Source of the DNA: a virus
Length of the DNA: 64,000 nucleotides
Virus record (IMG/VR): IMGVR_UViG_3300008952_000006
Span: 64,001-128,000 of that record
Strand: one strand, 5' to 3'
Shown: in pieces, positions 19,979 to 39,380 of the stretch
How positions within the stretch are numbered: the stretch's first letter is position 1
Layout: every line of letters starts with the position of its first letter
Position numbers and translations under genes: made by a program
Notes under the pieces: model-generated
What the model saw: the letters and a program-made list of their open reading frames with translations, nothing else
Told to the model about the DNA's origin: nothing
The model's database searches: none

Positions 19979-21615
19979 TAGTATCTCCGCTTCTTATTAT
20001 CTTCTTTGTCCCCTATAGGACTGATAATATCAGGTCTTGGGTGCTGCATCATAGAGGCCAAAAAACAATACGTTAGCGAATGAAGGGTATCATCCGTGGT
20101 ACCAGGGGTCCTCTGAACAACTGTGGTTCTCCTAGATTCATTATACTCCGTAAATACAGATAACATATCACTACCAAAGGGTTGTTCAATCTCTTCCCAT
20201 TTCGGAAAAGCAAATTCATTTTTTCGATTGAGTGCGTTAATAATCGCCATTAATGCCTCTGTTCGGTTCACCATGAATCTACTAAGGCTCTTATCAAAAT
20301 AGAGCTTTTTAGTGTTTACGTACTGATACCGCGCGATCCTTCGGATGCCAAATGTTCTAATTAGCTTATCATTTCTGTCAAACCCACCACCGTAGTCTAC
20401 ACCAACTACTGCTATATTAAAACGATCAATATAACCACTAATAACGCGCATTAAATTCTCAGGCTCGGCCTCCTCGCCCTCAAAGCGCTTCATAAGCAGG
20501 ATATTAAAGCGGTCCTTAATATAGCAACCTATAGTCATTACCGTGTAGGAATTCTCAGCGGTTCCCCAATCTATCCCCATAAACATTTTACTGCGTCCCC
20601 TGAACTTATCGGCGTCTGCCATGCTCCGGTCGGTGCAGTTCGCTATTAGGGTGTCTCTAGTCAGAGGCTTGCTACCAGAGTCAAATGGGAGCCCGAGCAC
20701 CTCGTTGTAAAACTGGGCTCTGCTGTAGCGTTTCTTCTTATCTAAAATTTCGTGCCAATTCACCCAAGGCGTAATCACCTGAGGAATTCTATACCCCTCG
20801 AAGGGCTCCTTGATTGGTGGGTTCTCCAGCCAGTGGGGGGACCTCATAGAGGCCCACTGGGCCTTCTCGTGGCTAGGGTTTATCTGCTTGTTGCACTTGT
20901 CACACATCAAGAAGTCGGGACCAATATTATCGATCCCTATCTTATTCCAAGCGTTACACCCGTCGCAAGGGATTACCCACTCGTTCTGGGTAGAGAACTG
21001 ACTCCAGTAGTAACTTATTGTATTATCGACGCTTTTGGGGGTTCCTGAATATCGCAGGATCTTGAGGGGGGAGTGTGCTAGAGCCTCTTCGATTACGGGG
21101 ATAACTTCCGTTAGAATGTCTTGGATCTCATCAAGAAGCAACATATCAGCCGAGATGCCACGGACACGATCAGCATGCAGGAAAGCATAGCGCATAGTTA
21201 GATCAGACCCAGTTATGAACTTCTTATACAGAACGTTATTCTTGGTGTTCTCTCCCCTGGAGAACACCTGTAGGTGGGGAGACATCTCGATAGGGGTAGC
21301 GATACGGTCTCTTGAAAACGTCTCAGTCTGCTGCTGGGTGGGGCTTACAAACAGCGCGCGAAAATGGCGTCGGAGCAGTGTATATGTAAGAATAATATTC
21401 CCGAGTGTGGTACTCTTCTCTACCTGCCGCCCACAGAGCAACAAAACTCTACGAGCGGGGGTATCATATATAGGGAGAAGGTATTCACGCCCTTTGAAGG
21501 AAAACTTATTGAGATCACCCCCTGTAGCAATATTCATAAAAGAACCCACAAACTCGGTAGGAAACATCTCCAGCGATTGCTGTATGGTTTCCTCTGTCTC
21601 GTGAACTCGAATCAT
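19978..21615 (-). CDS. terL: Terminase large subunit (lambda gpA-like)
   Basis: Walker A GRQVEKST, Walker B LLLDE, coupling motif GTP, CxxC..CxxC finger, nuclease MGIDWG, GVDYGGG and C-terminal DDTLH. Confidence 0.9.
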   Translation of the reverse strand: MIRVHETEETIQQSLEMFPTEFVGSFMNIATGGDLNKFSFKGREYLLPIYDTPARRVLLLCGRQVEKSTTLGNIILTYTLLRRHFRALFVSPTQQQTETFSRDRIATPIEMSPHLQVFSRGENTKNNVLYKKFITGSDLTMRYAFLHADRVRGISADMLLLDEIQDILTEVIPVIEEALAHSPLKILRYSGTPKSVDNTISYYWSQFSTQNEWVIPCDGCNAWNKIGIDNIGPDFLMCDKCNKQINPSHEKAQWASMRSPHWLENPPIKEPFEGYRIPQVITPWVNWHEILDKKKRYSRAQFYNEVLGLPFDSGSKPLTRDTLIANCTDRSMADADKFRGRSKMFMGIDWGTAENSYTVMTIGCYIKDRFNILLMKRFEGEEAEPENLMRVISGYIDRFNIAVVGVDYGGGFDRNDKLIRTFGIRRIARYQYVNTKKLYFDKSLSRFMVNRTEALMAIINALNRKNEFAFPKWEEIEQPFGSDMLSVFTEYNESRRTTVVQRTPGTTDDTLHSLTYCFLASMMQHPRPDIISPIGDKEDNKKRRY

Positions 21616-21845: not shown

Positions 21846-22115
21846 TCATTTCTCGCCCCCTACATCCGAAAAATCATTGCAGACAAAGTCAGATCTAACC
21901 GGAGACTGGGCGTACCTTGAGCACCAACCGTCACCCTTCCAAGACCTACCAGCAGTGTAGGTAAAGTTCTCACAGCTTCCACAGGACGCATAATCCTTAG
22001 ACACTCTGAGGTTGGGTGGGTTGGCCTGGGCTAGCTTTTGCCGAATTCCTTCCAAAGAATCTGGAGAAAAGGCCAGGAGACTTCTTTTGGGTTGTGGGTT
22101 TTTTGGCGTAGACAT
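21846..22115 (-). CDS. Small Cys4 metal-binding protein (HiPIP-like spacing)
   Basis: From ATG 22115: CGSCENF..GWCSRY..V..VCNDF; QKLAQA motif; overlaps the helicase 3' end. Confidence 0.5.
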   Translation of the reverse strand: MSTPKNPQPKRSLLAFSPDSLEGIRQKLAQANPPNLRVSKDYASCGSCENFTYTAGRSWKGDGWCSRYAQSPVRSDFVCNDFSDVGGEK

Positions 22116-23772
22116 AGCGGGTCTTCCCTTGCGAATCTGTATATTTGTACAGGTGCTTTTTGTTCTTATAAGCCTTATAAAATTGCTTTTGCTGCGTAAA
22201 CTTTCCTCGCGCAACACTATCCATCCATTGGTCAGTTGTTCTGGGGGTTGTCTTGCCAAACATTCTTCCAATGACACCCGGCTTTGCGCTTTCCGGCGCA
22301 ACGCTCTGATACCTCCGGACATTGACAACACGCTCTTCTTCGGGGCGATGCTTCTGACCACCCAGCCTTCTAGCGCGGCCCTCGGCCTGCAAGACTCGCT
22401 GAGGGTTGAAGTGGCCGTCAAGAGAGTAAAACGCAGTGGAGTTTCTAAGGTCCAAGCCTTCAGCGCCCGCCCCACTCAGCACGATAACTCGCTTCTTACC
22501 CTCTTTGTAGTCTTTGACCCCAGCCTGTCTCGAAACGCCGGTAACCTTATCACCACCAACGGTGGTGCCCTTGCCCACAAATACTGCGTGAGAGATACCT
22601 AGGTCTTTTAGGCCAGCAGAGATAACGTCTATGCCGCCGCGCACAAGGTTTGAATAGAGGACCACTTTATTATCTGGCGCTTCTGCCAAATGCTGTTTAG
22701 TGTCCTGCAGTAACTTGCTAACTTTGGGGGTTCTCTTTGCGGACTGCGCAAGCGTTATATCGCTCCGCCCAGCCTCAAGAGAGTTCGAGAGTTGACGCGC
22801 CTGGGATATCTGCGCGAAGAGCATCTTGGCGTCTTTTACAGTTATATTAGGGTCTTTCTTCGTGATGTACTTTTTTATGGGGCCCAGTTTATCTAGAGAC
22901 AATTGGTACAGCCTGTACTGCTCCTTAGACATAGGGACTTCAACAACCTTGGTTTCCTTCCGAGGCATTGACTTGCCTTTCAGGCTCTTAGTCTCTACGT
23001 AGTCTATTTTTGTGCCTGTCCGCTCCCGTAACTCTGCGACATTCCGCATGCCGACAACTTTCTTCTTCGAATCGTTAAACCCCTTAGTAAACCCAATTGT
23101 CTCGGTGTACCTCCGCTTAAACTGCTTAGGGGTCATATCCCGAGTCCCCTCGGACAGGGTAAGCAACGTGGCTAACTCAGAAGGTCTATTATTAATCATA
23201 GACGCGGTGAGGCCCATAAAATTAGTAGCTAATTGCCGTGCCGCCTGGAGCGCCTTGTAGGTGCTCGCGCTCTCATTACGTGTCTTGTGAAACTCATCCG
23301 CAATGATGGTGTCTGCGCCCGTTCTCTTCATAAAGCCAATAGGGTCACGGCGAAACATCGCGTAGCTTACAATTGTATAGTCCTTGTCGGACTCCTCCCC
23401 GGGGCGGATGTACCCAGACTTTTTTGACTTCTCTGAGGAAGACCCAATTGCCTGCCATGTACTATTAGTGAACTTCTCAACACCGTTTGTTGCGAAGTTG
23501 TCTCGAAGGCCCGAGGGAACAATGACAATAGCCTTTCTGGCCTTGCCCTCATGCTTCATTTTCTCAAAGCCGTAGATGCTGGTGACAGTCTTCCCTGTGC
23601 CCATCTCATGGGCGAGGATCATCTTGCCCTTATTAGCGAAAAGCCTATCAATGGCCGCCGCCTGATGTTCATAGGGCTTAAACCACTCTTTCAAGGAAGG
23701 AATCCCTGTCCCGTGGGCAGGTTTATCCACTTTCTCAGCAGCCTTCTTTATTAAGTAGTCACCTAAGGGCAC
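21997..23772 (-). CDS. SNF2-family SF2 helicase/ATPase
   Basis: PYEHQ, LAHEMGTGKT, DEFH, LTAS..N, GAEGLDL, FNP..QAEGRARRLG. Confidence 0.9.
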   Translation of the reverse strand: MPLGDYLIKKAAEKVDKPAHGTGIPSLKEWFKPYEHQAAAIDRLFANKGKMILAHEMGTGKTVTSIYGFEKMKHEGKARKAIVIVPSGLRDNFATNGVEKFTNSTWQAIGSSSEKSKKSGYIRPGEESDKDYTIVSYAMFRRDPIGFMKRTGADTIIADEFHKTRNESASTYKALQAARQLATNFMGLTASMINNRPSELATLLTLSEGTRDMTPKQFKRRYTETIGFTKGFNDSKKKVVGMRNVAELRERTGTKIDYVETKSLKGKSMPRKETKVVEVPMSKEQYRLYQLSLDKLGPIKKYITKKDPNITVKDAKMLFAQISQARQLSNSLEAGRSDITLAQSAKRTPKVSKLLQDTKQHLAEAPDNKVVLYSNLVRGGIDVISAGLKDLGISHAVFVGKGTTVGGDKVTGVSRQAGVKDYKEGKKRVIVLSGAGAEGLDLRNSTAFYSLDGHFNPQRVLQAEGRARRLGGQKHRPEEERVVNVRRYQSVAPESAKPGVIGRMFGKTTPRTTDQWMDSVARGKFTQQKQFYKAYKNKKHLYKYTDSQGKTRYVYAKKPTTQKKSPGLFSRFFGRNSAKASPGQPTQPQSV

Positions 23773-26041: not shown

Positions 26042-26833
26042 CTAATCCTCGCCCCTCTTCAAGCTTTCCAAGCTTGTAATATCACGCTTGCCCAGTTTAA
26101 TGGCAACACTTCTCAGTTCTTCTAGAACTTGTTGAACCTCATCCCCGGTTCTATTTAATTCTTCTGTAGCCTTAAAGATGTTTTCAGCCCACATTTTGGC
26201 TGTCATGGCCGTATCTCTATTATTGGGAGACGCAGTAGTTTCGAAAAACCGCATGGCTGACTCGTGAAACACGCTCCGGATAACGTCCTTCTGGGGCAGG
26301 TCTACACGGTACCCTGTGCGCCATAGAGCATATTCAATGCCCTGCTTATAGCATTGCTGGAGCATCTTCCCGTCTGGGTACTTATCGAGGTATGCGAACC
26401 ATTCACGCCCAGACAATAGCTCCCGATTCCAGAAGTAATGTCTATACATATCGATGGTCTTTTGGGCCACCTTTTGACCACCGATCTCCAAAATATAACT
26501 GCTAATATCCTCTAAAGAAGCATCACTCAGTATTAGGGCTTCCAGCAGGGGCCTTATTTTTGTGTCCCCAAGCAGGTCCCTTGCGCGCAGAGCGTGCCTC
26601 TGCTCCGTAGCCATGGACATGATGCGTTGGCGTCTGACCCACGCTTTTGTGGGGCTGTTTGTAATATCGAATCTGGCGGGTTTTGTTTCTCTAAGCTTTG
26701 CGTTAATCCCTCTGAGGTACTCGCTCGACGGCTCTGGCATGCGGTACATACACGCAGCCGCAGCAATTTGCCCCTGGTTCAGACCAGAGAACAAAAGCAT
26801 GTATTTTAGCCAGTACTCATTGGGTTGTTTCAT
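26042..26833 (-). CDS. Hypothetical helical protein, possibly DNA-binding
   Basis: 263 aa; HTH-like segments (LNQGQIAAA, SLEDISSY..QKTIDMYRHYFWN). Confidence 0.6.
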   Translation of the reverse strand: MKQPNEYWLKYMLLFSGLNQGQIAAAACMYRMPEPSSEYLRGINAKLRETKPARFDITNSPTKAWVRRQRIMSMATEQRHALRARDLLGDTKIRPLLEALILSDASLEDISSYILEIGGQKVAQKTIDMYRHYFWNRELLSGREWFAYLDKYPDGKMLQQCYKQGIEYALWRTGYRVDLPQKDVIRSVFHESAMRFFETTASPNNRDTAMTAKMWAENIFKATEELNRTGDEVQQVLEELRSVAIKLGKRDITSLESLKRGED

Positions 26834-28845: not shown

Positions 28846-28856
28846 TTTATTACCTC

Positions 28857-29339
28857 TTAGACCCAGGGGATTGGTGGTGACCCTGGTGTAGTTTGCGTTC
28901 CGGATGCTGCCCACAATGATAATACCCCGTTTAGGACTATTGTTGAAGGCATAGTAGTAGCTGAAGGTGGCAATGTTGCCAAAATAATTAAATTTAAGGG
29001 GACCACAGGGGGTGCGTGAACAACCGGTGCGGGTGGCGTTACGTTCCCCGGGGCCGCGCACATTGTGGCGAATACGGTAAACCCCGCCGCCAAAGTTTCG
29101 TGTGATAGAATATTAACAGCGCCCCCCTGGGCGGCTTTAACAGTCGTAATAAATAGTTCCTCTCCTGCGTCTAAGCCGAGCGGGGTCCATTTAGGTATTT
29201 CACCGTTCTTAAAAAAAGCTCGAGCCACCTTTGCCCAACCGGAGACACAGTCCATATCTTCAGCCCCGGCAGCCAGTGCACCAGATACAGCAAGCTGGAT
29301 TGCCTCATCTACGTCTGCAATGGCTGTGGCGTAAGGCAT
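28857..29339 (-). CDS. Putative spike-tip/baseplate-associated protein
   Basis: Start reassigned to ATG 29339 (MPYATAI; TAATG coupling with spike gene); Pro-rich PPAP/PPIPW. Confidence 0.45.
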   Translation of the reverse strand: MPYATAIADVDEAIQLAVSGALAAGAEDMDCVSGWAKVARAFFKNGEIPKWTPLGLDAGEELFITTVKAAQGGAVNILSHETLAAGFTVFATMCAAPGNVTPPAPVVHAPPVVPLNLIILATLPPSATTMPSTIVLNGVLSLWAASGTQTTPGSPPIPWV

Positions 29340-30754
29340 TATTTCTTCACCTTTACTGTAGATGACCCAACCTTGTTCCAGGCGGGGGGCTGCGCAGGCG
29401 TTATTTGAATCATCCCGGGACTCGTCGGTCCCCAAGCAGTCAGTACCTGAAGCTGTGTTTTCATGTAGAGATCTAGGTCCGAAAATCTAACGACGCCCGT
29501 GTCAGCCGAATCACCAAGATCAATAGTTGTGGCATTAATATCCACGTGCGGAGACTTAATCTCAACGCTGTCTAGGACGTCCATTACGACTTTCTTGCAC
29601 GCCATTTCGAATTCATTACTCTTGAGAAACTCCATGTAGGCGCTTCCGTCCGCATCCTTTGCTCCCTCACCCCAGTCAAGTCGGGCTGAGCCGTGGACTG
29701 CCGCATAGAAGTCTTTCTCTATTTCGTGACGGATGCTGCCCTTTGTAAAAACAAAGTTGTCCCCATCACGGTTTAGCTGAAACGCATAGGTTACTTTGTC
29801 TTTATTATTACCGTCATCGTGATTATAAATAGTAATACTTATAACGCCCTTCTCCTCTGCGGTAATGCCCTCCTCTGGCGGACTGCCCTTGCCCTGCTTC
29901 AGATCCGCATTTGCAAATATATGCTCTGCGTCCACCTCAGTGTCTAAAGTTTCGTCCGTAAGTCTGCCTACACGCATCTCTACCGTATACTTACCTTTGG
30001 ATACATCTTCCTGCGTTAGGTCCTTAATATTATAACGCACCAATACGGGAGTTTCTTCAGCAGTTTTGAGCGCGTTCTTCTGATTCTCGTCTAAAAAATA
30101 ATTTGAGCTTGGTACGCTCCCAGTGCCTCCGGAGGGGGTTTCTCCATATGCCAGGACGGCATGACCCCATTCAATCTCTCCTACAGGGCTGTATGCCTGA
30201 TATTTTTGGAAGTAGTCCCTAACAACATTTTCGACAGGGATGTAAATTCTCTGCGCCAAACCTGTGGAGCCAATTTGCACTATCCCGCCCCTTCGGACCA
30301 CAATTTGGTTTTCGTCTGCTGTGCCGAGGTAGATGTCCCCGGGCTCTAGCGGGTGACGAAATCCGCGCCAACTGGGGTCTGTGTCCGTTTCATCAATGGT
30401 GGCGTATCTTTCCAGGCTTCCCGAACTAGAGCCCTCCAACCGCTCAGCAAGCGCCTCAGATTCAGTGGGCGCTACCGTGGTGGGGTTCAAAACAAAGCCT
30501 AAAATAAAGTGTGTCCCGTCCCCACAGGTACACACATAACAAGTAGAATCAATCTCAGGCATGAAGTGTACGCCGCCGCCATGATCTCGGTGGCAGTAAG
30601 GGGTTGCAAACGGGATAGGGCCCAATGGTCTAAGGGAGAAAACGGTTTCAAGATCCACAGTCCAATTCTCAAAGTTAACCGCAGTGACTCTAGCCAACGT
30701 TATATTTGCAGGCCCATTAGCATCGGAAACAGTCTTTGCGTACGGATCAGGCAT
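29339..30754 (-). CDS. Baseplate central spike (gpV/gp5-like)
   Basis: N-terminal OB-fold pattern (ARVTAVN..TVD..MPEIDS.C.V..FILGF); C-terminal short beta-strand repeats ending GSSTVKVKK. Confidence 0.7.
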   Translation of the reverse strand: MPDPYAKTVSDANGPANITLARVTAVNFENWTVDLETVFSLRPLGPIPFATPYCHRDHGGGVHFMPEIDSTCYVCTCGDGTHFILGFVLNPTTVAPTESEALAERLEGSSSGSLERYATIDETDTDPSWRGFRHPLEPGDIYLGTADENQIVVRRGGIVQIGSTGLAQRIYIPVENVVRDYFQKYQAYSPVGEIEWGHAVLAYGETPSGGTGSVPSSNYFLDENQKNALKTAEETPVLVRYNIKDLTQEDVSKGKYTVEMRVGRLTDETLDTEVDAEHIFANADLKQGKGSPPEEGITAEEKGVISITIYNHDDGNNKDKVTYAFQLNRDGDNFVFTKGSIRHEIEKDFYAAVHGSARLDWGEGAKDADGSAYMEFLKSNEFEMACKKVVMDVLDSVEIKSPHVDINATTIDLGDSADTGVVRFSDLDLYMKTQLQVLTAWGPTSPGMIQITPAQPPAWNKVGSSTVKVKK

Positions 30755-33700
30755 TAATACGGCCCCTTTGTAAGCTTATCCTTCTTGCCAAATTCCGCAG
30801 AGAACGCAAGTCCGGGCGCTGGGTGCAGCCCGTGGATATCAGACTCCCAGCCCTCGTTTGCCGCACGGATGAATGTTTCTTTTAACTTCCTGTACTGAAG
30901 TCTGGCAAGCCAATCTGTTGTTTGGTCAAGCGGTAGTGTTTCTACACCGCGCAACATCGGCTCAGTCTTTATTGGATTTTTCATAGCCTTGTTCAAAGAG
31001 TTCGCATGTGACAAGGAGATGTAGTCCCCACGGATAAACTTGCTGGAATCGCCGGGGTCTGTGACCTTTCCAAGGTTAGTTAAAGCTTTCGTGACCACCT
31101 CAACATTTCTCTTCTTAATGCCCTCCTTCTCGTAGACTTTATGTATCTCGTCTGCGAGGTATCTCTGGACTGTTTCGATATTTGTTTTCTCTAAAAGCTC
31201 GTGCGGGTTTATGATCCCACCAGTCAGCGACTGACCGCGCCTAACCTTTGCGCCGCTCTTAACGGAGACCTCTAGGTTGCCCGGTACGTAGACTTCCTGA
31301 TTACCAATAGTAATGTCATGTCCACCGATTGGGCTTACCTTTACAGAAGATATGGTGCCAGTTGCAGGCGAAAGAATAGCGGAATTAGCAAGCTTTTCTG
31401 GCATTTTTAATAATTGTGAAACACGATGAATCCCGCTAACTACGGAGCTTCCGCCTCCCGCAACGCCACCGGTATGGAATGCCTTCATGGATAGCTGAGT
31501 GCCCCGCTCACCGATAGAGGTCCCAGCAATAAGACCTATATTGACCCCCTTAGCAATTGGGTTGCCATTGTCCGCAATACCGTAACACTTGGAACACAGG
31601 CCCTTGGAAAGCTCACATTTTAGAGGCGACCGGACGAGGACCTTGTCAACTTTTGATGACCTAAGTCTAGAGAGCATATTAGGGGTAATAAGTGACCCAC
31701 TCGGTATTTTTAATCCAGGTGCGGACACGGGCTTCGCAAGGTACCGGTCTACAATGTCTGAGTCAGCAGCCGCCAACGCAATGCCTCTTGTTGTTTTGCA
31801 GTCATCCCCAGCTATAACGTAAGATATAGTAGTATTAGCAATTTGCTTGTTCAAAGCTCCCGGAAGCTGGACGGACTGCACCTTTTTTATCAGGCCTGCT
31901 CGAGCACCAGAAGTGGTAACCCAGTAGTCCGACGATTGGAGTCCCTCAGCATATGACCTAGATACGGGGACCGGTATTACCCGACCTTTTGCGTTCTCAA
32001 CAAGCATTGGCGAAAGCAGCATTTGTTGAAGTTGCGCCCAAGAAGGTTTTACGCCAGCACTCTCCATAGCTTTTAACTTATTGCCACTCTTATCGAGGAG
32101 TTTTTTGGCCTCCACGCTCATGGCTTTAGATGCGGCAGTGTAGAGATCAACAAGCTTGGCGTCTCCCGCCTCCCTCGAAATCATGTTCAGGCCTACCTGT
32201 TTTTGTATCACAGATTCTTGCTTACGAGCGACCGCCATATGCTTTTCTCGGATATCCCTTAGAGACTTGAAATCGTCAAGACCAAAGGAGAAACCAATAT
32301 TGTATGCGTGACCAAACCCTAACTCTTTTATCTTATCAGCAGTATCCGCAAACTCTGCTGGTGTCTTCGTCGCGATGTCATGTAGTATATTTTGTAGTAG
32401 TTTTTTATCCACAACAGCGGTTGGATCTGTCAGGTAGCGGTCTGACTGAACTTTCTTAGGTAGCTTGCTATTAAAAATAATACGGCCTGCGGTCGTTTTG
32501 GACGCTCCGACCTGGACAACATCGCTCATGCTGATGTTTCCTTCTTTTGCGTCTTTAAGGGCATCTTTCGAGTTTCGGTATGACTTTTTCACATCCTTGC
32601 CCCACTTAGTAAGCAGGTAGAGTCCAAGCTGTCCCTCCAGGGTAGGTTGGTACATTACCCGCCCTGTTGCGGGGTTAAACAAGTTCTTAGATGGCATCAT
32701 CTTGTAAGACTCGTCTACTGCCTCCTGCGAAACCGGAACAAACACAGCCATAGTATCCCCGTCAAAATCAGCATTAAACCCACCCACCACAAGAGGGTGG
32801 ATATGAATTGCTGACTCTTTATGGAGACGTGGCTTAAAAGCCATAATCCCAAACTTATGGAGGACGGGGTCTCTTTTGAAGAGAACAGGACGCTTACTGA
32901 CTGCAACATCCAGCGCTTTGTTTGCTAGGGTGGTGTTCTTCTCCACCTCTTCCCGTGCCTTCAGAGGGGAGTACCCCATCTTCACAAGCTCTTTGACCAC
33001 GAAGGGCCGGTAAATCTTCATGGCCCCTTTTCTGGGTAGGCCCATCTCATCCAGGTGTAAGTTCATGTCAGGAACGATGACAGAGCGCATACTGATGTCT
33101 TGCCGTCTATCTACGAGCCTCTGTAGAAAGAAACTCTGCTTAGGGCTGGATCTCCCTGAGAGTATATGGAGTATGCCTGGGGGAGCGGGCTGCCCGTCAA
33201 CCGTGACGCTACCCTGGGTGGCTGTTTGAACCCCCATCAAGGCCTCTGTGGCCTCGTACAAGTCACTCCGCAAACCGGCCACCGCGCTCTCTGGAAGAAC
33301 TCCTTTGGCTTCATCAAGCTTCTTGTTTAGCAGGGCGATATCTCGGTAGAGCATGTTAACGCCGTCGATGTTTAGGTCCCCGCCCTCCATTGCCGTGATC
33401 GGCCTAAACAGGGGCGGTAGTACGGGCACGTTATCTATTACGTAAGCTTCCTCAGCGCTCAGCTTGTTTTTCTGTAGCATCAAGAGGTATTTAATCTTCT
33501 TGTTTACGCGGTCCAGGTCACTGCGCCGAGCTGTCTTAATCTGCTCTTTAGCGGCGGCCAGATCCCCTTCTATATCTACAGAAGACAACCTTAGAGCAAG
33601 GGCGGACGGTCCAGACGCAGTGTCTTCTGTGGCCTCAACCAGATTGCCCTCGGAGTCGAAGCCAAGCTTGCTTGCTATAATCGCGTCATACTCCTTGCCA

Positions 33701-36700
33701 GTCAGCCCTAAGAGAGACCGAATACCTTTTTCAAACACAGGGTTTGGTAGGGACGAGGCAAGCGCTATGTGGGACCAGTTTTTCCCCCCAGGCCCACCAG
33801 TGATATCCTCATCAAAAAGACCCCCCTTTTCAGGCTTTAGATCCTTTCCTCGGATAACGCGACTGCCATCCTTTATCTCACCGCTAGACATAGCCACAAT
33901 CTGCTTGTCTGTAAGAGGTGAAACAATGAGACCGTTTCCATCCTTCTCAACGTTCAACCCAAGAGCATTCATGTACGCTAGGAACTTCTCATAGGCAAAT
34001 GACGGCTTTGGCGACGGCAATATGGCACCAGTCTGGATCGCGGTCCAAACCTCGTCTTGGGCCTTGTCTCCCTTGTATGTAAGAGCATCTCTGATATTGG
34101 CCGTTGCGCCATGAGCAAGCATAGCGTAGAGGCCAAGCTCACCAAACCTTTGGGCCCCACCAGTTTTACCGCCGCTCTTAGGCACAAGATTGGCATCGTA
34201 GTCATAGCCATAACCATGAGACCTAGCGCTTAACTTCTTGTCCACTTGGTGCATCAGCTTAAGAAAGTACTGGTGACCAACCAAAACCGTGCCAAGACTT
34301 TTCCCTGTTTCGGGGTCAAAAAGTTCACGGGTCTCCGAGAGCCCCGCACCCTTCAGAGCAGCGTCTACCGCATCACGGTAACCCAACTCACGCTCATGCT
34401 CCTTAACCTCTACCTTCTTGGGGCCTGACTTTGTCTGTATGGTCCGAGTGTGTGCTTTAACACGGATTACCTTCTTTCGGTCATCTGACTGAAAGTTCTC
34501 AACCGCGTAGGGCTCACCGTTAGCAGCGGCAACATTCCCTAAAGCAGTCTCTAAAACTTGGCCTGGGTTGATCCGGCCAGGAACCCCAGAAGGGTTTAGG
34601 GCGATCTGGAGGGCGTTCCCATCAGAATCTTTGGGCATCTCCTCATCCGGTATTACAGCCGTGATGACCCCTTTATTCCCGTGGCGGCCAGATAATTTAT
34701 CACCAATGTCTGCGGGTTCTTCTGTCTTGACATGCACCAAGACCTCTCGCCCATTGCGAACGACGTCAGTAACCTCGCCACGATAGGGTTTATCCCAAAC
34801 AACTGACTTGTTCTTATAGGGACGCACCAATGACTTGTGTATGCCACGTAGAAGTAACTGTTCCTTGGAGGGCTCAACCTTCTGCAGGACTGTTGTGATT
34901 ACGTCCCCAGGGTTGACGATCTCACCCTTCTTGATGACTCCGTCAGCATCTAGCTTGGTGGCGTTTTCCTCTGAGATCGAACCTGGGTAATGCGCACGAA
35001 ACTTCTTAAGGCCCAGAAGCATGGTTTTGTCTACATAGGCGCGTTCTTTGTGCAGGTGGACACTTGTTAATTTCTCTGACGCAGACTCACTAATAACTAT
35101 ACCATCCTCAAACACCAGCCCCTTGTATGGTAAGTAGCCCACCCGCAAGTTCGTTCCCAAGGCCAAGGTTCCATTATTAGTGAAATTAGTATCAGCAATG
35201 ATTTGGCCCTCGGAAACCCTATCGCCCTTCTTAACTAAGGAGTTGCTGGTAATAAAGGCCTTCTTGTCATTAAGGGGGAAGTTATCGTATAGCTGCACGT
35301 CATGTTTCTTCCCGTCTGCGCTTTTTATGATGACCTTCGAGGAAGATACAGAAGACACAAAGCCGGAAACAGGTGATGAGTGCGACGTAAACCGACCCAC
35401 AATCTTCTCCCAAGTAGAGTAATCCTCATGCTTGTTACCAGACACAACCTGCACCAGTGGCTGCTCTGGGTTTTTTAAAGAGATAGACTGTGAAAGATGC
35501 CGAGTGGCCATGCCTGCCCGGTTTGCTTGATCCGAGGGTAAAAAAGGAACCAGATTAGCAGTAATAGAAAACATCTGCTTGGGTGACTCTAGTACATAGT
35601 CAACTTGGTCTGCCGCGACCTTGCTGGGGTCTTCACCGCCAGCAGGAATGACCACCACGTGATCGCTCTTCGGAGTGAGCGATTTGTTGGGGCCCTTTGA
35701 GTACTGATCCGAGAAGGCCACGTTCCCTACCGACAGCTCAGATGGGGACTTCTCGACGTATTTTCCCGCGTTAACATCGAATACCCTTATCCGTGGCGTT
35801 ACGCCCTTTTTACGGACCCCAAGGGAAAGGTGCCCACTAATGCCTGACCGTTTTCCTTCCGGGGTGTGTACTGGGTCGATAAACCCTAGAAAACTTGAGT
35901 CAATAAGCTTGGCCTCTTCCGAGATTGCTGCATCGCTCTGGATCCCCCCAGTACCCATAATGGTAGTTCGTAAGAAGCCGCCCATCATATCTACGGGGTT
36001 AACTTGGGATGTTTGTTGGGATAAGGACGTTGATGTAAAGAAAGCCTTGATGGGTACGTTAAAGATGTCGGGCGTCACAATGGCCCTGACGTTATCTTTA
36101 CGGTCCAGATTGTTCATCATCTTGTACGTGATTCTTCTCTTGGAATTCTGGATACGCTCAGGGATATGATTGTCAATTGACCAAAGCTCTTTAAATTGCA
36201 GCGAGTCGCGATTATCAACTTGAGCAGTGCCTTTGTTTATATCTACTAATTTCTGAGAAGATGCTAGAAGGGCCCCGCCTGTTACCGAGCTAAAGGCTTG
36301 GCCTAGCGTAACGGCAGTCGTGTCCTCTCGCAGACCCGTGTCCTTGAGCACCTCTTGTATGACGGGGGTTGCTTCCGCATCAGTTTTTACAGGCACGTTC
36401 CTGGCTAGGGCTCTGGATAGCTTAACAAGCTCGCCTCTTTTCTTTGCAGCCACAGCGCTCGTATACAGCTCTGGGCCCCAGGAAGACCGTATCGTATCGT
36501 CATCTACGCCCAGGGCCTGCAAGACTGGGAGGAGTTGGACATTTGTTGAGCCGTAAGACATCAAAAATCTTCGTTTGGTTGGGTCAAAACCAAGCCGGAA
36601 ACCGCGCCCTTTAGTTAAGTTGAACTGGGACTCGAGGTCACCGTTTGCCTTACGTCTGGCATAAACACCGGACTTCAAGCGCCACTGGTTGTCCGCTTGA

Positions 36701-37029
36701 TATTCTGTCCCGTCTATGATGTAGCTATATCTGCGTGTGATCTTTGGGAGGTTTAGTACCTTGAGTTTTTTATTGGAACTGACGACCTTCCCTGTCGCGT
36801 TGTCAACAAGAGAAAAATCACCAAAGATACCTTGCGCCCAGGTGCGGCCTCGGAGACGCGCCTTCTTCTGGCTTGCGATGTCGTCCTCATCCACAGGGTC
36901 ACCAACGTATATTTCCTTGGCCACAAGTGTGTGCTTCTTCCCTACCAAGGGAAAGAACCGTTTAATTTCTTCTATCGTCCCGTCTTCAAGGGTTTTCATC
37001 ACCCTCTGGGGATCGAGCACATTAGACAT
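30754..37029 (-). CDS. rpoBC: Single-chain multisubunit-type DNA-directed RNA polymerase (beta and beta' fused)
   Basis: beta motifs DPVHTPEG, LVPFL..D..NRA.M, FEDG, GDKLSGRHGNKG, NPSGVPGRIN, KL.HQVDKK..AR, GAQRFGE; beta' motifs PVLPP..RP, RSVIVP, R.P.LH, NADFDGD, RSPLKC..C..CYG, SIGERGTQLSM..FHTGG; one uninterrupted frame. Confidence 0.95.
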   Translation of the reverse strand: MSNVLDPQRVMKTLEDGTIEEIKRFFPLVGKKHTLVAKEIYVGDPVDEDDIASQKKARLRGRTWAQGIFGDFSLVDNATGKVVSSNKKLKVLNLPKITRRYSYIIDGTEYQADNQWRLKSGVYARRKANGDLESQFNLTKGRGFRLGFDPTKRRFLMSYGSTNVQLLPVLQALGVDDDTIRSSWGPELYTSAVAAKKRGELVKLSRALARNVPVKTDAEATPVIQEVLKDTGLREDTTAVTLGQAFSSVTGGALLASSQKLVDINKGTAQVDNRDSLQFKELWSIDNHIPERIQNSKRRITYKMMNNLDRKDNVRAIVTPDIFNVPIKAFFTSTSLSQQTSQVNPVDMMGGFLRTTIMGTGGIQSDAAISEEAKLIDSSFLGFIDPVHTPEGKRSGISGHLSLGVRKKGVTPRIRVFDVNAGKYVEKSPSELSVGNVAFSDQYSKGPNKSLTPKSDHVVVIPAGGEDPSKVAADQVDYVLESPKQMFSITANLVPFLPSDQANRAGMATRHLSQSISLKNPEQPLVQVVSGNKHEDYSTWEKIVGRFTSHSSPVSGFVSSVSSSKVIIKSADGKKHDVQLYDNFPLNDKKAFITSNSLVKKGDRVSEGQIIADTNFTNNGTLALGTNLRVGYLPYKGLVFEDGIVISESASEKLTSVHLHKERAYVDKTMLLGLKKFRAHYPGSISEENATKLDADGVIKKGEIVNPGDVITTVLQKVEPSKEQLLLRGIHKSLVRPYKNKSVVWDKPYRGEVTDVVRNGREVLVHVKTEEPADIGDKLSGRHGNKGVITAVIPDEEMPKDSDGNALQIALNPSGVPGRINPGQVLETALGNVAAANGEPYAVENFQSDDRKKVIRVKAHTRTIQTKSGPKKVEVKEHERELGYRDAVDAALKGAGLSETRELFDPETGKSLGTVLVGHQYFLKLMHQVDKKLSARSHGYGYDYDANLVPKSGGKTGGAQRFGELGLYAMLAHGATANIRDALTYKGDKAQDEVWTAIQTGAILPSPKPSFAYEKFLAYMNALGLNVEKDGNGLIVSPLTDKQIVAMSSGEIKDGSRVIRGKDLKPEKGGLFDEDITGGPGGKNWSHIALASSLPNPVFEKGIRSLLGLTGKEYDAIIASKLGFDSEGNLVEATEDTASGPSALALRLSSVDIEGDLAAAKEQIKTARRSDLDRVNKKIKYLLMLQKNKLSAEEAYVIDNVPVLPPLFRPITAMEGGDLNIDGVNMLYRDIALLNKKLDEAKGVLPESAVAGLRSDLYEATEALMGVQTATQGSVTVDGQPAPPGILHILSGRSSPKQSFFLQRLVDRRQDISMRSVIVPDMNLHLDEMGLPRKGAMKIYRPFVVKELVKMGYSPLKAREEVEKNTTLANKALDVAVSKRPVLFKRDPVLHKFGIMAFKPRLHKESAIHIHPLVVGGFNADFDGDTMAVFVPVSQEAVDESYKMMPSKNLFNPATGRVMYQPTLEGQLGLYLLTKWGKDVKKSYRNSKDALKDAKEGNISMSDVVQVGASKTTAGRIIFNSKLPKKVQSDRYLTDPTAVVDKKLLQNILHDIATKTPAEFADTADKIKELGFGHAYNIGFSFGLDDFKSLRDIREKHMAVARKQESVIQKQVGLNMISREAGDAKLVDLYTAASKAMSVEAKKLLDKSGNKLKAMESAGVKPSWAQLQQMLLSPMLVENAKGRVIPVPVSRSYAEGLQSSDYWVTTSGARAGLIKKVQSVQLPGALNKQIANTTISYVIAGDDCKTTRGIALAAADSDIVDRYLAKPVSAPGLKIPSGSLITPNMLSRLRSSKVDKVLVRSPLKCELSKGLCSKCYGIADNGNPIAKGVNIGLIAGTSIGERGTQLSMKAFHTGGVAGGGSSVVSGIHRVSQLLKMPEKLANSAILSPATGTISSVKVSPIGGHDITIGNQEVYVPGNLEVSVKSGAKVRRGQSLTGGIINPHELLEKTNIETVQRYLADEIHKVYEKEGIKKRNVEVVTKALTNLGKVTDPGDSSKFIRGDYISLSHANSLNKAMKNPIKTEPMLRGVETLPLDQTTDWLARLQYRKLKETFIRAANEGWESDIHGLHPAPGLAFSAEFGKKDKLTKGPY

Positions 37030-37059: not shown

Positions 37060-37072
37060 TTAGGTATAAGAA
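37060..37072 (+). promoter_or_regulatory. Candidate promoter motif copy 1 (TTAGGTATAAGAA)
   Basis: Intergenic; matches copies at 41073 and 57035. Confidence 0.45.
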
Positions 37073-37113
37073 CTATGGGCAATATAGCCCTCATAAGAAA
37101 AGGAGTACTGTTG

Positions 37114-37197
37114 ATGAGAGAAGCAAGCAAAACCACGCAAGCCTCGACAACCGAGGATCTGGCAGACGCAGTCGAAAAATCCCTGAGCGGTAAGTAA
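37114..37197 (+). CDS. Putative 27-aa peptide (alternative start 37075)
   Basis: AAGGAG RBS; MREASKTTQASTTEDLADAVEKSLSGK. Confidence 0.35.
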   Translation: MREASKTTQASTTEDLADAVEKSLSGK

Positions 37198-37200
37198 AAG

Positions 37201-37416
37201 TTGAAGACTGTAAAAAAGATCCAGTGCTTTATAAAGAGTGGTTGGTGCCGAACGCCAGCCAACTGTGGCGAATGCGAGTACTTTCTGGACCATAAAATAA
37301 ACCGTTGGGTTTGCGTCAAATGTCTTAAACATAACGATGCAACCTCCAGCTTTTTCCAGAAGGGGCGGTGTGACCGCTGCGAAAAGTCATCAGCGATATT
37401 GGTTTGTGTAGGTTAA
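37201..37416 (+). CDS. Small Cys-rich zinc-finger protein antisense to the structural operon
   Basis: 71 aa, 9 Cys with three CxxC pairs; stop overlaps portal stop (TTAA). Confidence 0.55.
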   Translation: MKTVKKIQCFIKSGWCRTPANCGECEYFLDHKINRWVCVKCLKHNDATSSFFQKGRCDRCEKSSAILVCVG

Positions 37417-39380
37417 ATCTGTGCACTACCGGGTCCTGATCTAGGTGGTAACTTGTCTGGTAGTGGTTGCATGGGAGCCATGCCCCCTCCAGACAAAGCG
37501 TTATTCACCAGCATATACAAATCCGGGTTCGCGGCACGTAACTGTGCCAGAACCCGGTACCTTTCCACTTCATTCATCTTTTTTAGCTCGGAGGTCATTT
37601 TGCGAGCCTGGGCAAAAAGATCAACCATGGGGCTCTGTGTGGCCTGGACCGGACTCTGCGCTACGCCTTGGACCACGCCCCCCGCTGCCTCTTGCCCCTG
37701 CGCCTGCTCTGGAGCAGGTTGTTGTTGTTGCTCTGCCCCAGCCTGCTGCTCTGCCCCAGCCTGTTGTTGATCGGGGGAGCCGCCTTGCTGTTCTGCCCCG
37801 GGCGGAGGGCCGTACTGTTGCTGCATTTTTGCTTGGTTTTCTTGTTGCATGTTCTGGGATTGGATCTGATACCGAGTCTGGATAAGCATGGCTTCGCCCT
37901 GCGCCTCTGTTTGCTTAATCTGCTGCTCGCGTTGGGTGAGGTTAAGTCGTTGGGATTCCTTGTTTATGAGATCCTGCTCAGTGTCAAAGTTGTAGTCCCT
38001 AGATTGCAAGAAGGTTCTACGACTAATCATCCCCGCGTTAGCAAGGTTCATATCAAAAGAGGCCCGCTGAATATCATCAGCCATCTTGAAGGGCTTGAAT
38101 TTTAAACCGATCTTAGGGAGATTCAAAAACTGAGAAACGCGGTCTCGGATAAACTCAACACACCGAAGCATGTCTTGCCTATTGCCCAGGAACTCGTTTT
38201 CCAGGGCACGCAAGTTTACCGAAGCGCCCGAGTACTGGGCCTCGCCATAAAAGAAGCCCGTAGGGACACCCATCCCCGCGATGATTTGGTCGGAGTAAAC
38301 CCGTAGCTCTTGGTGCAGCAGGAGACTCCTGCCTTGACCACCAATCATTTGGTACCCGATAGGGACGGGCATAACAGGGATATGGTTATTGTCTTGCCGC
38401 CAGCGCTTTATCTGATGCTGAACTTCCTTCTGCCAGTCCGCTAAGTTGATTTGGGCATAAGGATTATTACCATCAGTCGATACCTGCGGAAACATAACCC
38501 GCATAGGGACAATATGCTCCAGGGCCACAGCTTCCTGGGCTTTTCGTAGTATCTGTAGAAAGAAGATGTCCTTTAGAACCGGAAGGATAAGGGGTGCTCC
38601 CCAACCGCTATCGGAGGGCTCACGAGAAATAGACGGCCTGCGACTGTGGAAGATCTTGGAGCTGTCTAGAAGGACAGACCTTTTCTTCCGTAAGGAGTCA
38701 ATAAAAGCTTGGGGAATCGTCTCCAACACATCAGGCTTGCCGAGGGTGATGTCGTTCTTCAATGTCCGGGGCATTTTATAGTAATAGAGGTAACGGCCAG
38801 TTATCTCATTGTATTTTATAGTAATATGCTTTGGGTTCCAGCGGATAAGGCGTATTTTAACAGCTGCCTTAACGGGCTCATCAACCACTTTCGCGGGTCC
38901 GTGGTGGTTGCATTGGGGGCAGTCAAAATGGAACTGGTAACCCTTCCACTTGTAGCCAGCTTTTTTAGCGGGCGCGCTGTGCCCGCAAGAGGTGCAGTGA
39001 AGAACTTTTGTGAACGGAAACGCCACAGAGACAAAAGAATTTCCATATGTATATCGATCAAGATTGACTTCAATCAAAAATGACCGCAGCAGAAACTGCT
39101 TCTCAAACAAGTCCTTATACGCCCCCACTAGACCAACATTATCATCTTCGTAAACCAAGTCCGTGATCGGATAAGTTGCTAATTTCTGGGTTACTGCATT
39201 TATAAGCGGATTGGTAAGCTGGTAGTAATGGCACCAGTCAAAGGTATCTTTGATGGTTTTAGGTATGTAATTTTTGGCAACGTCAAAGAACGGGCTAGGG
39301 TAAAAGGACTCCGGGCGGCCAACAGACTTTGCTCGAGAACTTGCGGAAGATAGGCCATACCTCTGTGATCCGTAATCCAT
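37413..39380 (-). CDS. Portal protein with zinc-ribbon insert and Gln-rich C-terminal extension
   Basis: YQLTNPLINAV..LATYP, YTYGNSF, IFH..R..WG.P...VL, IIAGMGVP..F; CTSC..CPQC insert. Confidence 0.8.
   Translation of the reverse strand: MDYGSQRYGLSSASSRAKSVGRPESFYPSPFFDVAKNYIPKTIKDTFDWCHYYQLTNPLINAVTQKLATYPITDLVYEDDNVGLVGAYKDLFEKQFLLRSFLIEVNLDRYTYGNSFVSVAFPFTKVLHCTSCGHSAPAKKAGYKWKGYQFHFDCPQCNHHGPAKVVDEPVKAAVKIRLIRWNPKHITIKYNEITGRYLYYYKMPRTLKNDITLGKPDVLETIPQAFIDSLRKKRSVLLDSSKIFHSRRPSISREPSDSGWGAPLILPVLKDIFFLQILRKAQEAVALEHIVPMRVMFPQVSTDGNNPYAQINLADWQKEVQHQIKRWRQDNNHIPVMPVPIGYQMIGGQGRSLLLHQELRVYSDQIIAGMGVPTGFFYGEAQYSGASVNLRALENEFLGNRQDMLRCVEFIRDRVSQFLNLPKIGLKFKPFKMADDIQRASFDMNLANAGMISRRTFLQSRDYNFDTEQDLINKESQRLNLTQREQQIKQTEAQGEAMLIQTRYQIQSQNMQQENQAKMQQQYGPPPGAEQQGGSPDQQQAGAEQQAGAEQQQQPAPEQAQGQEAAGGVVQGVAQSPVQATQSPMVDLFAQARKMTSELKKMNEVERYRVLAQLRAANPDLYMLVNNALSGGGMAPMQPLPDKLPPRSGPGSAQI
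37729..37763. repeat. 17-nt direct repeat, period 18, in portal tail
   Basis: tgctctgccccagcctg at 37729-37745 and 37747-37763, encoding QAGAEQ twice. Confidence 0.7.

What the first reader, a model, noticed from the sequence alone, without database searches (positions are those of the whole stretch)
30754..37029. Single-chain, minimised beta-beta' RNA polymerase inside the virion operon
Seen: all core beta and beta' motifs, including NADFDGD, in one 2091-aa frame. The beta' N-terminal Cys4 zinc finger is absent (GEI..KPEKGGLFDEDITG runs straight to WSHI) while the second zinc site remains. No alpha, omega or sigma gene is seen. The stop overlaps the spike gene start (TAATG). Known: E. coli beta plus beta' total about 2750 aa; phiKZ-type phage enzymes are split into several chains; tailed phages with deep-branching beta/beta' genes have been reported from metagenomes, so the lineage may be known though poorly characterised. 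Inference: a late-made, virion-packaged enzyme for host-independent early transcription.
Basis: partly seen in the sequence, partly recalled or inferred. Interest (0 to 1): 0.8.

Follow-up and report, generated by a model that had tools for sequence, protein, structure and literature searches.

The report
Single-chain phage RNA polymerase with own sigma
A complete 173-kb uncultured marine phage encodes both large subunits of a bacterial-type RNA polymerase as one 2091-residue protein, placed among its virion genes and paired with its own sigma factor, so it probably carries its own transcription machine into the host, as a distantly related cultured phage appears to do.

Summary
Window 30754-37029 (-) is one 2091-aa ORF with a complete beta module (res 1-1031) joined directly to a complete beta' module. 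NADFDGD and the second zinc site are invariant in the close family. The beta' N-terminal Cys4 zinc domain is deleted in all 19 phage sequences compared. The stop overlaps the next gene (TAATG), which looks spike-like.

The whole genome shows no alpha, omega or second polymerase. It does encode a sigma70-family factor, 59 kb outside the window, so "no sigma" is true only of the window.

Trees place the enzyme outside 27 bacteria from 14 phyla, and the best bacterial identity is 27-31%. It is not a recent transfer.

More than 120 metagenomic clusters share the single-chain layout. The nearest cultured relatives are Salmonella phage Arash and Vibrio phage D69 (about 30% identity). They have the enzyme in two chains in the same portal-to-capsid synteny. 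Arash virion proteomics detects both chains, the sigma and the neighbouring SNF2 ATPase.

Packaging and early transcription are therefore plausible, but remain inferred for this phage. I found no paper describing the fused layout. It is not the published mReC set. This scan has already reported the family on other genomes.

The parts
30754..37029 (-). Single-chain beta-beta' RNA polymerase, 2091 aa (P0001)
   Evidence: ORF and translation; Pfam Rpb2 then Rpb1 domains; bacterial beta' in PDB at E about 1e-110; only one copy in the 173-kb genome
33937..37029 (-). Beta module, residues 1-1031
   Evidence: AlphaFold model (pLDDT 71.5, pTM 0.59) matches whole bacterial beta chains at TM about 0.6, E 3e-60. 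The beta C-terminus maps to res 1031 in the alignment
30754..33936 (-). Beta' module, residues 1032-2091, joined to beta without a linker
   Evidence: The junction alignment shows the bacterial beta C-terminal tail and beta' N-terminal residues trimmed. The model matches bacterial beta' over about 1000-1100 columns at E 1e-57; global TM is low because the domains are placed loosely
33769..33798 (-). Site of the deleted beta' Cys4 zinc-binding domain (res 1078-1087, GGPGGKNWSH)
   Evidence: 32 alignment columns (Bacillus beta' 58-89) are absent in all 19 phage rows; HMMER alignment to Streptomyces beta' 17-53
32755..32775 (-). Catalytic NADFDGD, residues 1419-1425
   Evidence: A1420-D1425 are invariant in 16 family members; aligned with the bacterial NADFDGD
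31585..31800 (-). Second zinc site: C1744, C1805, C1812, C1815
   Evidence: Invariant in alignment A1; aligned with the bacterial Cys4. Lost in the distant fused lineage L018
35953..36042 (-). Equivalent of the rifampicin-pocket cluster I (res 330-359), strongly diverged
   Evidence: Bacteria of four phyla keep SQFMDQxNPLSExTHKRRxSALG; the query reads SQQTSQVNPVDMMGGFLRTTIMG. That these positions govern rifampicin binding is textbook knowledge, not tested here
37413..39380 (-). Portal protein gene, two genes upstream
   Evidence: 34% identity (E 2e-94) to Arash gp204, annotated portal; also matches D69_0259
37060..37332 (-). 90-aa ORF between portal and polymerase, function unknown
   Evidence: A small ORF sits in the same position in Arash (gp205, 92 aa) and D69 (97 aa), but without detectable similarity. 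Atlas search gave nothing
29339..30754 (-). Downstream gene, 471 aa, probable baseplate central spike
   Evidence: No Pfam or PHROG hit. ESM Atlas neighbours are Phage_base_V / VgrG clusters (cosine 0.95, 197 of 256 features; structural rows also Phage_base_V). This is a lead, not proof
21997..23772 (-). SNF2-family ATPase, homologue of Arash gp217
   Evidence: Pfam SNF2-rel_dom 1.7e-21 and Helicase_C; 27% identity to Arash gp217, which is abundant in Arash particles; weak match to vaccinia NPH-I
19978..21615 (-). Terminase large subunit
   Evidence: phrog_675 at 2e-71; Pfam GpA_ATPase
14986..16674 (-). Prohead protease-like protein, homologue of Arash gp222
   Evidence: phrog_18299 head maturation protease at 1e-11; 41% identity to Arash and D69
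11013..12233 (-). Major capsid protein
   Evidence: 38% identity to Arash gp226, annotated MCP; weak phrog_2522; no PF07068
1815..6281 (-). Tail sheath (1488 aa), the last virion-arm gene I identified at this end of the window
   Evidence: phrog_2839 and phrog_279, tail sheath, at 1e-8

Best explanation
The gene encodes a working, bacterial-type RNA polymerase core made as one chain. A full beta module is fused head-to-tail to a full beta' module that lacks the N-terminal zinc domain. It has no alpha or omega partner.

It most likely works as a holoenzyme with the phage's own sigma70-family factor (genome 160264-161187, outside the window). That factor has regions 2, 3 and 4, and so should read two-part promoters. 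The enzyme probably also works with the SNF2 ATPase encoded downstream.

The gene sits in the virion arm between the portal and a spike-like gene. By analogy with phage Arash, the polymerase, sigma and SNF2 protein are made with the structural proteins, packed into the capsid and delivered with the DNA. This would let phage transcription start without the host polymerase.

Because it is the only polymerase gene found in the genome, newly made enzyme probably also transcribes later genes.

Shown: identity, completeness, conservation, gene order, sigma co-occurrence and deep phylogenetic position. Inferred: sigma binding, packaging, timing and independence from the host enzyme.
For: Enzyme identity and integrity:
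- Pfam and PDB matches.
- Catalytic and zinc-2 residues are invariant across 16 members that are 44-81% identical to the query.
- More than 120 clusters of 2040-2120-aa homologues lie on 130-199-kb contigs.
- Both modules fold like whole bacterial beta and beta'.

No other polymerase or partner subunit:
- Only one copy in the genome.
- No alpha or omega found.

Sigma factor:
- Pfam Sigma70_r3 scores 28.9 bits, above the cut-off; r2 is weak; TIGR02937 gives E 5.7e-6.
- 32% identity to Arash gp10.
- Among 50,697 phage records, homologues occur only in the four phages that also carry this polymerase.
- In metagenomes the sigma sits on contigs of the same lengths as at least 14 polymerase-bearing contigs, which I take to be the same contigs, at parallel identity levels.
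- Complex prediction of beta' 1040-1420 with sigma 79-307 gave weak support only: score 0.32, best of 3 controls 0.00. That mark was reached by 58 of 80 solved complexes and 2 of 110 mismatched pairs, but at 0.60 or under by only 7 of those 80 and by both mismatches. Runs agree in at least 43% of contacts; partner pLDDT is at least 64. This is a textbook pair, so the pass may reflect likeness to solved holoenzymes.

Virion context:
- Synteny portal - small ORF - polymerase ... SNF2 ... protease ... capsid is shared with Arash and D69.
- The downstream gene is spike-like.
- The replication genes lie on the opposite strand.

Packaging in a relative:
- In Arash particles, gp206 has 3516 spectra (the most of any protein), gp216 1210, gp217 SNF2 1148 and sigma gp10 467 (PMC10585845).
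- My arithmetic with gene lengths gives about 2.0-2.4 spectra per residue for all four, against 1.5 for the portal.

Leader motif:
- An N-terminal [FLMIVK]xKxA motif marks 30 of 72 virion-arm ORFs against 10 of 123 others (p = 6e-8). It is present on the sigma and the SNF2 protein.
- In the sigma family its K and A are invariant.
Against: - There are no expression or proteomic data for this phage or any member of the single-chain clade.
- The Arash preparation yielded 116 proteins, including ribonucleotide reductases and RNA ligases, and its authors themselves allow carry-over of abundant infection-phase proteins.
- Arash is only about 30% identical to the query.
- The polymerase itself carries no N-terminal KxA leader.
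- With a single polymerase gene, a purely intracellular role cannot be excluded.
- Sigma binding has only weak computational support.
- The candidate promoter GCAAA-N15-16-GTATAAG (6 sites against 0.27 expected) cannot be assigned to the phage rather than the host holoenzyme.
- That motif was absent from the relatives' polymerase-flanking loci.
Confidence: 0.6

Rival explanations
1. Non-virion enzyme. The polymerase is synthesised during infection and transcribes middle and late phage genes inside the cell. The host polymerase does the early work, and the polymerase's detection in Arash particles is contamination.
For: The Arash particle proteome lists 116 proteins including ribonucleotide reductases, and the authors raise carry-over themselves. 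The polymerase lacks the N-terminal KxA leader seen on many virion-arm proteins. Only one polymerase gene exists, whereas phiKZ-type phages use a separate non-virion enzyme for later genes.
Against: The position between portal and spike-like genes is conserved in Arash and D69. In Arash the polymerase chains, sigma and SNF2 give similar length-normalised counts, above the portal. Sigma70-like promoter matches in the virion arm are at chance level, 18 against 16.4.
Confidence: 0.22
2. The phage sigma redirects the host polymerase, as T4 gp55 or SPO1 gp28 do. The single-chain enzyme would then recognise promoters without sigma, as the phiKZ and AR9 non-virion enzymes do.
For: Many phages without their own polymerase encode sigma factors (PMC7824862). 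The complex prediction gave only weak support. The loss of the zinc domain could alter how a sigma factor docks (my inference from textbook knowledge of holoenzyme structures, not tested here).
Against: This sigma family co-occurs strictly with this polymerase family in the phage database and, by matching contig lengths, on long metagenomic contigs. None of the universal bacterial segments found missing from the phage enzymes lies in the clamp-helix stretch. The sigma is in Arash particles together with the polymerase.
Confidence: 0.12
3. The gene is a recent capture of host rpoB-rpoC genes, or bacterial contamination of the contig.
For: Homology to bacterial beta and beta' is clear.
Against: The best identity to any of the bacterial genomes scanned is 27-31%. 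All 19 phage sequences form one side of a branch with 100% support and a length of 1.5-2.4 changes per site. That branch attaches at or next to the CPR lineages, not inside any phylum, under both LG+G4 and LG+C20 models. The contig is a complete phage genome with terminal repeats.
Confidence: 0.01

Closest known systems
RNA polymerase of Salmonella phage Arash (gp206 + gp216, sigma gp10, SNF2 gp217; OQ632216, PMC10585845) and Vibrio phages D69, D148, D181
   Same: Homologous over the whole length (about 30% identity). Same portal - small ORF - polymerase - SNF2 - protease - capsid order. Same deletion of the beta' zinc domain. The second zinc site is retained. The sigma is homologous. Similar genome size (181-188 kb against 173 kb).
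   Different: In those phages the enzyme is two chains, cut near query residue 1500, with 0.6 to 4.7 kb of other genes inserted. Here it is one chain. Their active site reads AADYDGD. Arash also has a second sigma-like gene (gp196) with no homologue here. In the tree the two-chain forms sit among single-chain lineages, so the split looks derived.
mReC, multisubunit-RNAP-encoding Caudovirales (Weinheimer and Aylward 2020, PMC7481178)
   Same: Uncultured tailed phages whose bacterial-like beta/beta' polymerase branches outside cellular lineages.
   Different: The mReC entries I read have separate beta (about 920-1560 aa) and beta' (about 900-1370 aa) genes, and some contigs hold two sets. Their capsid is T4-type (PF07068) and their terminase PF03237. 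Here the capsid has no PF07068 match and the terminase is GpA-type. No 2086-2091-aa protein appears in their tables as stored. No joint tree was built.
phiKZ / AR9 jumbo-phage virion and non-virion RNA polymerases
   Same: Phage-encoded multisubunit-type polymerase without alpha or omega. A virion form starts infection. A Swi2/Snf2 ATPase is linked to the polymerase genes (PMC7824862).
   Different: In those phages beta and beta' are each split into two or three proteins, there are two paralogous enzymes, and no sigma factor is encoded. Here there is one chain, one enzyme and a sigma, and the sequence is much closer to the bacterial enzymes.
Natural cellular rpoB-rpoC fusions
   Same: The beta C-terminus is joined to the beta' N-terminus in one reading frame. 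A 2281-aa example was seen here in a Candidatus Paceibacterota genome (L054:172-7017). Helicobacter and Wolbachia fusions are known to me from the literature and were not checked here.
   Different: The Paceibacterota fusion groups with the other bacterial enzymes in the trees. From general knowledge, cellular enzymes also have alpha and omega partners and keep the zinc domain; I did not check this for L054. The phage fusion trims both termini and belongs to a separate deep lineage.
crAss-like phage gp66 and Thermus phage P23-45 tape-measure-fused virion polymerases
   Same: Single-polypeptide two-barrel polymerases delivered with the virion for early transcription (PMC7481178; PMC10770324 abstract).
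   Different: Those enzymes are so diverged that homology to beta and beta' is hard to see (for the crAss enzyme), and no sigma factor is reported for them in what I read. This one aligns to bacterial beta and beta' end to end.

Membership tests
Bacterial-type multisubunit RNAP core (beta/beta') | Two catalytic double-psi barrels: beta' NADFDGD and the beta GDKxxxRHGNKG lysine motif | tested here: met
   NADFDGD at 1419-1425. In beta, D777, K778, R782, K786 and G787 are invariant.
Bacterial-type multisubunit RNAP core (beta/beta') | Full set of beta and beta' domains, in order | tested here: met
   Pfam Rpb2_3 and Rpb2_6 score above cut-off and Rpb2_7 below it. Rpb1_2 and Rpb1_5 score above cut-off, Rpb1_1 gives 39.6 against 39.7, and Rpb1_3 is below. 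Models match whole beta (TM about 0.6) and beta' chains.
Bacterial-type multisubunit RNAP core (beta/beta') | Beta' N-terminal Cys4 zinc-binding domain | tested here: not met
   A 32-column deletion in all 19 phage rows.
Bacterial-type multisubunit RNAP core (beta/beta') | Alpha dimer and omega partner subunits encoded | tested here: not met
   PF01000, PF01193 and PF01192 give no match at E up to 1-10 in six frames of the complete genome. The controls rang in 14 of 14 genomes. Use of host alpha or omega cannot be excluded.
Bacterial-type multisubunit RNAP core (beta/beta') | Branches within Bacteria | tested here: not met
   The enzyme falls outside 27 bacteria of 14 phyla with 100% SH-aLRT under two models. 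The branch is long and there is no archaeal outgroup.
Arash/D69-type phage RNAP system | Full-length homology and shared synteny with portal, SNF2, protease and capsid genes | tested here: met
Arash/D69-type phage RNAP system | Dedicated gp10-type sigma factor | tested here: met
   g182 is 32% identical to gp10 (E 5e-23), and D69 carries a homologue.
Arash/D69-type phage RNAP system | Two chains: beta plus beta'N, and a separate beta'C | tested here: not met
   One uninterrupted ORF here and in more than 120 clusters.
Arash/D69-type phage RNAP system | Presence in virions | not testable with these tools
   Known only for Arash, by mass spectrometry.
mReC (PMC7481178) | Separate beta and beta' genes; T4-type capsid PF07068; terminase PF03237 | tested here: not met
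   The gene here is fused. There is no PF07068 match, and the terminase matches GpA_ATPase, with PF03237 only at E 0.06.
mReC (PMC7481178) | RNAP clusters with the mReC clade in a joint tree | not tested
phiKZ/AR9-type jumbo-phage RNAPs | Beta and beta' split into several chains; two paralogous enzymes; no sigma | tested here: not met
   One chain, one copy, and a sigma is present; the definition is from PMC7824862.
Sigma70 family (for the partner g182, outside the window) | Regions 2, 3 and 4 | tested here: inconclusive
   Region 3 scores above the Pfam cut-off (28.9 against 25.3). Region 2 scores 16.4 bits, below cut-off. TIGR02937 positions 37-165 match at E 5.7e-6, below cut-off. By eye, the alignment shows a region 2-like block and a C-terminal helix-turn-helix.

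The most novel reading that the evidence does not exclude
A large, undescribed clade of about 170-190-kb marine phages packs a self-contained, portable bacterial-type transcription machine into the capsid. The machine is a single-chain beta-beta' core that assembles without alpha or omega, a dedicated sigma carrying a capsid-targeting or processing leader, and an SNF2 ATPase. It represents a lineage that separated from the bacterial enzyme at or before the radiation of bacterial phyla. That would make it the simplest known natural bacterial-type holoenzyme (two polypeptides) and a new route to host-independent early transcription.
Probability: 0.4. Interest if true: 0.8.

Novelty: new variant of a known kind. 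Interest (0 to 1): 0.62.

Why it matters
If the one-chain core plus its sigma is active, it is a two-polypeptide version of the bacterial holoenzyme. Such an enzyme could answer several questions. What are alpha, omega and the beta' zinc domain actually needed for? How does a polymerase of about 230 kDa get packed into, and expelled from, a capsid? Can a bacterial-type enzyme work as a compact orthogonal transcription system? Its diverged rifampicin pocket predicts drug-insensitive phage transcription. Its position outside sampled bacterial diversity bears on the debate about the age of phage polymerases. The family is abundant in marine metagenomes, yet it appears to be undescribed as a fused enzyme.

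Tried and rejected
- PHROG and Pfam scans of the genes between the polymerase and the SNF2 gene (29339-30754, 26857-29061, 26042-26833, 25716-26039, 23834-25729), of the three upstream genes, and of eight large genes elsewhere gave no hits.
- The four giant ORFs (1202-2560 aa) gave only weak Baseplate_J and PKD hints and no polymerase signal.
- Arash gp196 and D69_0246, which are second sigma-like proteins, have no BLAST homologue in this genome.
- The PF00940 (T7-type polymerase) search was uninformative because its control rang nowhere.
- The Atlas search of the 90-aa ORF gave nothing above 0.8.
- The strict promoter motif was not found in ten relatives' polymerase-flanking loci.
- By eye I saw no shared late-promoter motif upstream of the virion-arm genes.
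- The sigma70-type promoter and terminator scan around the gene was at chance level.
- Complex prediction of sigma with the beta' clamp gave weak support only (0.32 against 0.00), which is not decisive.
- I first suspected the gene belonged to the published mReC set and rejected that after reading their tables.
- A 2025 paper on large aquatic phages turned out to concern phages without any polymerase.
- One search was a mistyped reference and a rejected search term.
Full report
**Where the window lies.** The window is bases 64001-128000 of a 173,034-bp IMG/VR virus record with 119-bp direct terminal repeats, that is, a complete phage genome. I called 195 ORFs. Long minus-strand arms carry the virion genes. 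In the window, the plus-strand block at 41.4-57 kb carries replication genes: helicases, a DnaB-like helicase, primase, a family A DNA polymerase, a UvsX-like recombinase, a resolvase and a Cas4-like nuclease.

**The observation.**
- The ORF at 30754-37029 (-) is real. It has an ATG behind a GGAGG site and encodes 2091 aa.
- Pfam places Rpb2 domains 3, 6 and 7 at residues 340-997 and Rpb1 domains 1, 2, 3 and 5 at 1154-1883.
- The best solved relatives are bacterial beta' chains at E about 1e-110.
- I aligned 19 phage sequences with the concatenated beta and beta' of 27 bacteria. The bacterial beta C-terminus and beta' N-terminus both map to query residue 1031. The fusion is therefore direct, with both termini trimmed and no linker.
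- The beta' zinc-binding domain (Bacillus beta' 58-89, WECHCGKY...CDRCGVEV) is a clean 32-column gap in every phage row. The query reads GGLFDEDITGGPGGKNWSHI across it.
- NADFDGD and the four cysteines of the second zinc site (C1744, C1805, C1812, C1815) are invariant in 16 family members that are 44-81% identical to the query.
- The stop overlaps the next start as TAATG.
- Apart from the zinc domain, only short universal bacterial segments are missing.
- AlphaFold models support a complete enzyme. The beta module (pLDDT 71.5) matches whole small bacterial beta chains at TM about 0.6. The beta' module (pLDDT 66.5) matches bacterial beta' over about 1000-1100 columns at E 1e-57. Its global TM is low because an isolated beta' does not hold its domain arrangement.

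**Partner subunits.**
- Six-frame searches of the complete genome find no alpha (PF01000, PF01193) and no omega (PF01192). Each control rang in 14 of 14 genomes.
- There is no second copy of the polymerase.
- It passes the Pfam cut-off for Sigma70_r3, has a weak r2 match, and matches TIGR02937 at E 5.7e-6.
- It is 32% identical to Arash gp10.
- In 50,697 phage records its homologues occur only in Arash and Vibrio phages D69, D148 and D181. These are exactly the cultured phages that carry this polymerase.
- In metagenomes it sits on contigs of the same lengths as the polymerase-bearing ones, for at least 14 contigs of 78-189 kb, with parallel identity levels. I take these to be the same contigs.
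- A complex prediction of sigma 79-307 with beta' 1040-1420 gave weak support only: score 0.32, best control 0.00. That mark was reached by 58 of 80 solved complexes and 2 of 110 mismatched pairs, but at 0.60 or under by only 7 of the 80 and by both mismatches. Runs agreed in at least 43% of contacts and partner pLDDT was at least 64. The pair resembles solved holoenzymes, so the pass may be memory.

**Context.**
- The gene order in the minus-strand arm runs: two unknown genes, the portal (34% identity to Arash gp204), a 90-aa ORF, the polymerase, and a 471-aa protein whose Atlas neighbours are Phage_base_V / VgrG spike families.
- After four further unknown genes come an SNF2 ATPase (Arash gp217 homologue), the terminase, a protease-like protein, the capsid protein and the tail sheath.
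- The same portal - small ORF - polymerase ... SNF2 ... protease ... capsid order holds in Arash and D69.
- The claim 'inside the virion operon' is therefore confirmed as gene order.
- I found no terminator or promoter signal that sets the gene apart from its neighbours.

**Relatives and phylogeny.**
- More than 120 clusters (at 90% identity) of 2040-2120-aa single-chain homologues, 42-81% identical to the query, occur in Tara, JGI, ENA and Logan assemblies on contigs of 130-199 kb.
- A lineage only 32% identical (L018, L019) is also single-chain.
- A scan of one genome per bacterial species gave no hit above 31% identity.
- Maximum-likelihood trees put all phage sequences on one side of a branch with 100% support. 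The models were LG+G4 (46 rows, 1995 columns) and LG+C20 PMSF (32 rows, 1962 columns). The branch is 1.5-2.4 changes per site long. It joins the bacterial tree at or next to the CPR lineages, not inside Pseudomonadota or any other phylum.
- Recent transfer is refuted.
- Caveats are long branches, odd amino-acid composition and the lack of an archaeal outgroup.
- The two-chain Arash and D69 enzymes branch between single-chain lineages, so their split near residue 1500 looks secondary.

**How it probably works.**
- Arash virion mass spectrometry found gp206 (beta plus beta'N) to be the most-detected protein, with 3516 spectra. It also found gp216 (1210), SNF2 gp217 (1148) and sigma gp10 (467) (PMC10585845).
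- Dividing by lengths (my arithmetic) gives 2.0-2.4 spectra per residue for all four, against 1.5 for the portal. This fits a packaged complex.
- The preparation also held 116 proteins including ribonucleotide reductases, so this is suggestive only.
- In the present genome an N-terminal [FLMIVK]xKxA motif marks 30 of 72 virion-arm ORFs against 10 of 123 others (p = 6e-8). The marked proteins include the capsid protein, the protease-like protein, the sigma (FLKYA) and the SNF2 protein.
- In the sigma family the motif's K and A are invariant, and it precedes a variable acidic spacer.
- This motif may be a targeting or cleavage signal. The polymerase itself lacks it at the N-terminus and has only one such motif in 2091 residues (5.2 expected).
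- A two-part motif GCAAA-N15-16-GTATAAG occurs six times against 0.27 expected, always upstream of plus-strand genes. It fits a sigma with regions 2 and 4, but I cannot assign it to the phage rather than the host holoenzyme.
- The segment equivalent to the rifampicin pocket is strongly diverged while bacteria of four phyla keep it. Drug insensitivity is an inference.

**Comparison with the literature.**
- The published mReC phages have separate beta and beta' genes, a T4-type capsid and a PF03237 terminase. This phage has none of these, and no protein of about 2090 aa appears in their stored tables.
- phiKZ-type enzymes are multiply split, duplicated and sigma-less, though also linked to an SNF2 protein.
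- The Arash paper annotates ordinary beta and beta' subunits and does not discuss the architecture.
- Six full-text searches found no description of the fused enzyme.
- Earlier reports of this scan describe the same family on other genomes. This finding is therefore not new to the scan.

Noticed in passing
homologues P0031-P0121 of the window gene; sites in query residues 392, 637, 711, 780, 820, 977-1019, 1429-1456, 1850-1853, 1896: 26 of the 120 listed homologues are 2416-3258 aa long because of 150-490-aa insertions at about 10 or more different conserved sites. Most begin with Cys and carry intein or LAGLIDADG Pfam domains. The site after GDKL in the beta catalytic motif is used in 11 of the 26. 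The polymerase is an intein hotspot.
   Followed up: partly
L054:172-7017 (Candidatus Paceibacterota MAG, DATJQA010000074.1): A CPR bacterium has rpoB and rpoC fused into one 2281-aa ORF. It groups with other CPR bacteria in the tree, so it is an independent cellular fusion.
   Followed up: partly
whole genome; in the window for example 11013-12233, 14986-16674 and 21997-23772 (N-termini): An N-terminal [FLMIVK]xKxA motif occurs in 30 of 72 virion-arm ORFs against 10 of 123 others (p = 6e-8). The marked ORFs include the capsid protein, the protease-like protein, the SNF2 protein and the sigma. It is a candidate prohead-protease or capsid-targeting signal.
   Followed up: partly
window 55136-55163 and 55822-55849; genome 17022, 23035, 30347, 46282; looser copy at window 41077: A promoter-like two-part motif GCAAA-N15-16-GTATAAG occurs 6 times against 0.27 expected. 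All copies are on the plus strand, and those whose context I checked lie in intergenic DNA upstream of plus-strand genes.
   Followed up: partly
L018:9749-16180 and L019 (IMG/VR contigs): A distant single-chain lineage (32% identity) has lost the cysteines of the second zinc site too, and its active site reads NADNDGD.
   Followed up: no
window 57380-64000, continuing to genome 146767: A run of giant minus-strand ORFs (2560, 1202, 2161 and 2311 aa) has only weak PKD and Baseplate_J hints. They are probably baseplate or fibre proteins.
   Followed up: partly
window 21997-23772: The polymerase-linked SNF2 ATPase weakly matches vaccinia NPH-I (E 3e-5), the SNF2 partner of the poxvirus virion polymerase. 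It did not match RapA.
   Followed up: no
L004 (Arash 134702-139329) and L002 (D69 147872-148509): The two chains of the split enzymes are separated by inserted genes: 4.7 kb, partly on the opposite strand, in Arash, and 0.6 kb in D69. D148 and D181 have a homing endonuclease annotated within the matched polymerase region.
   Followed up: no
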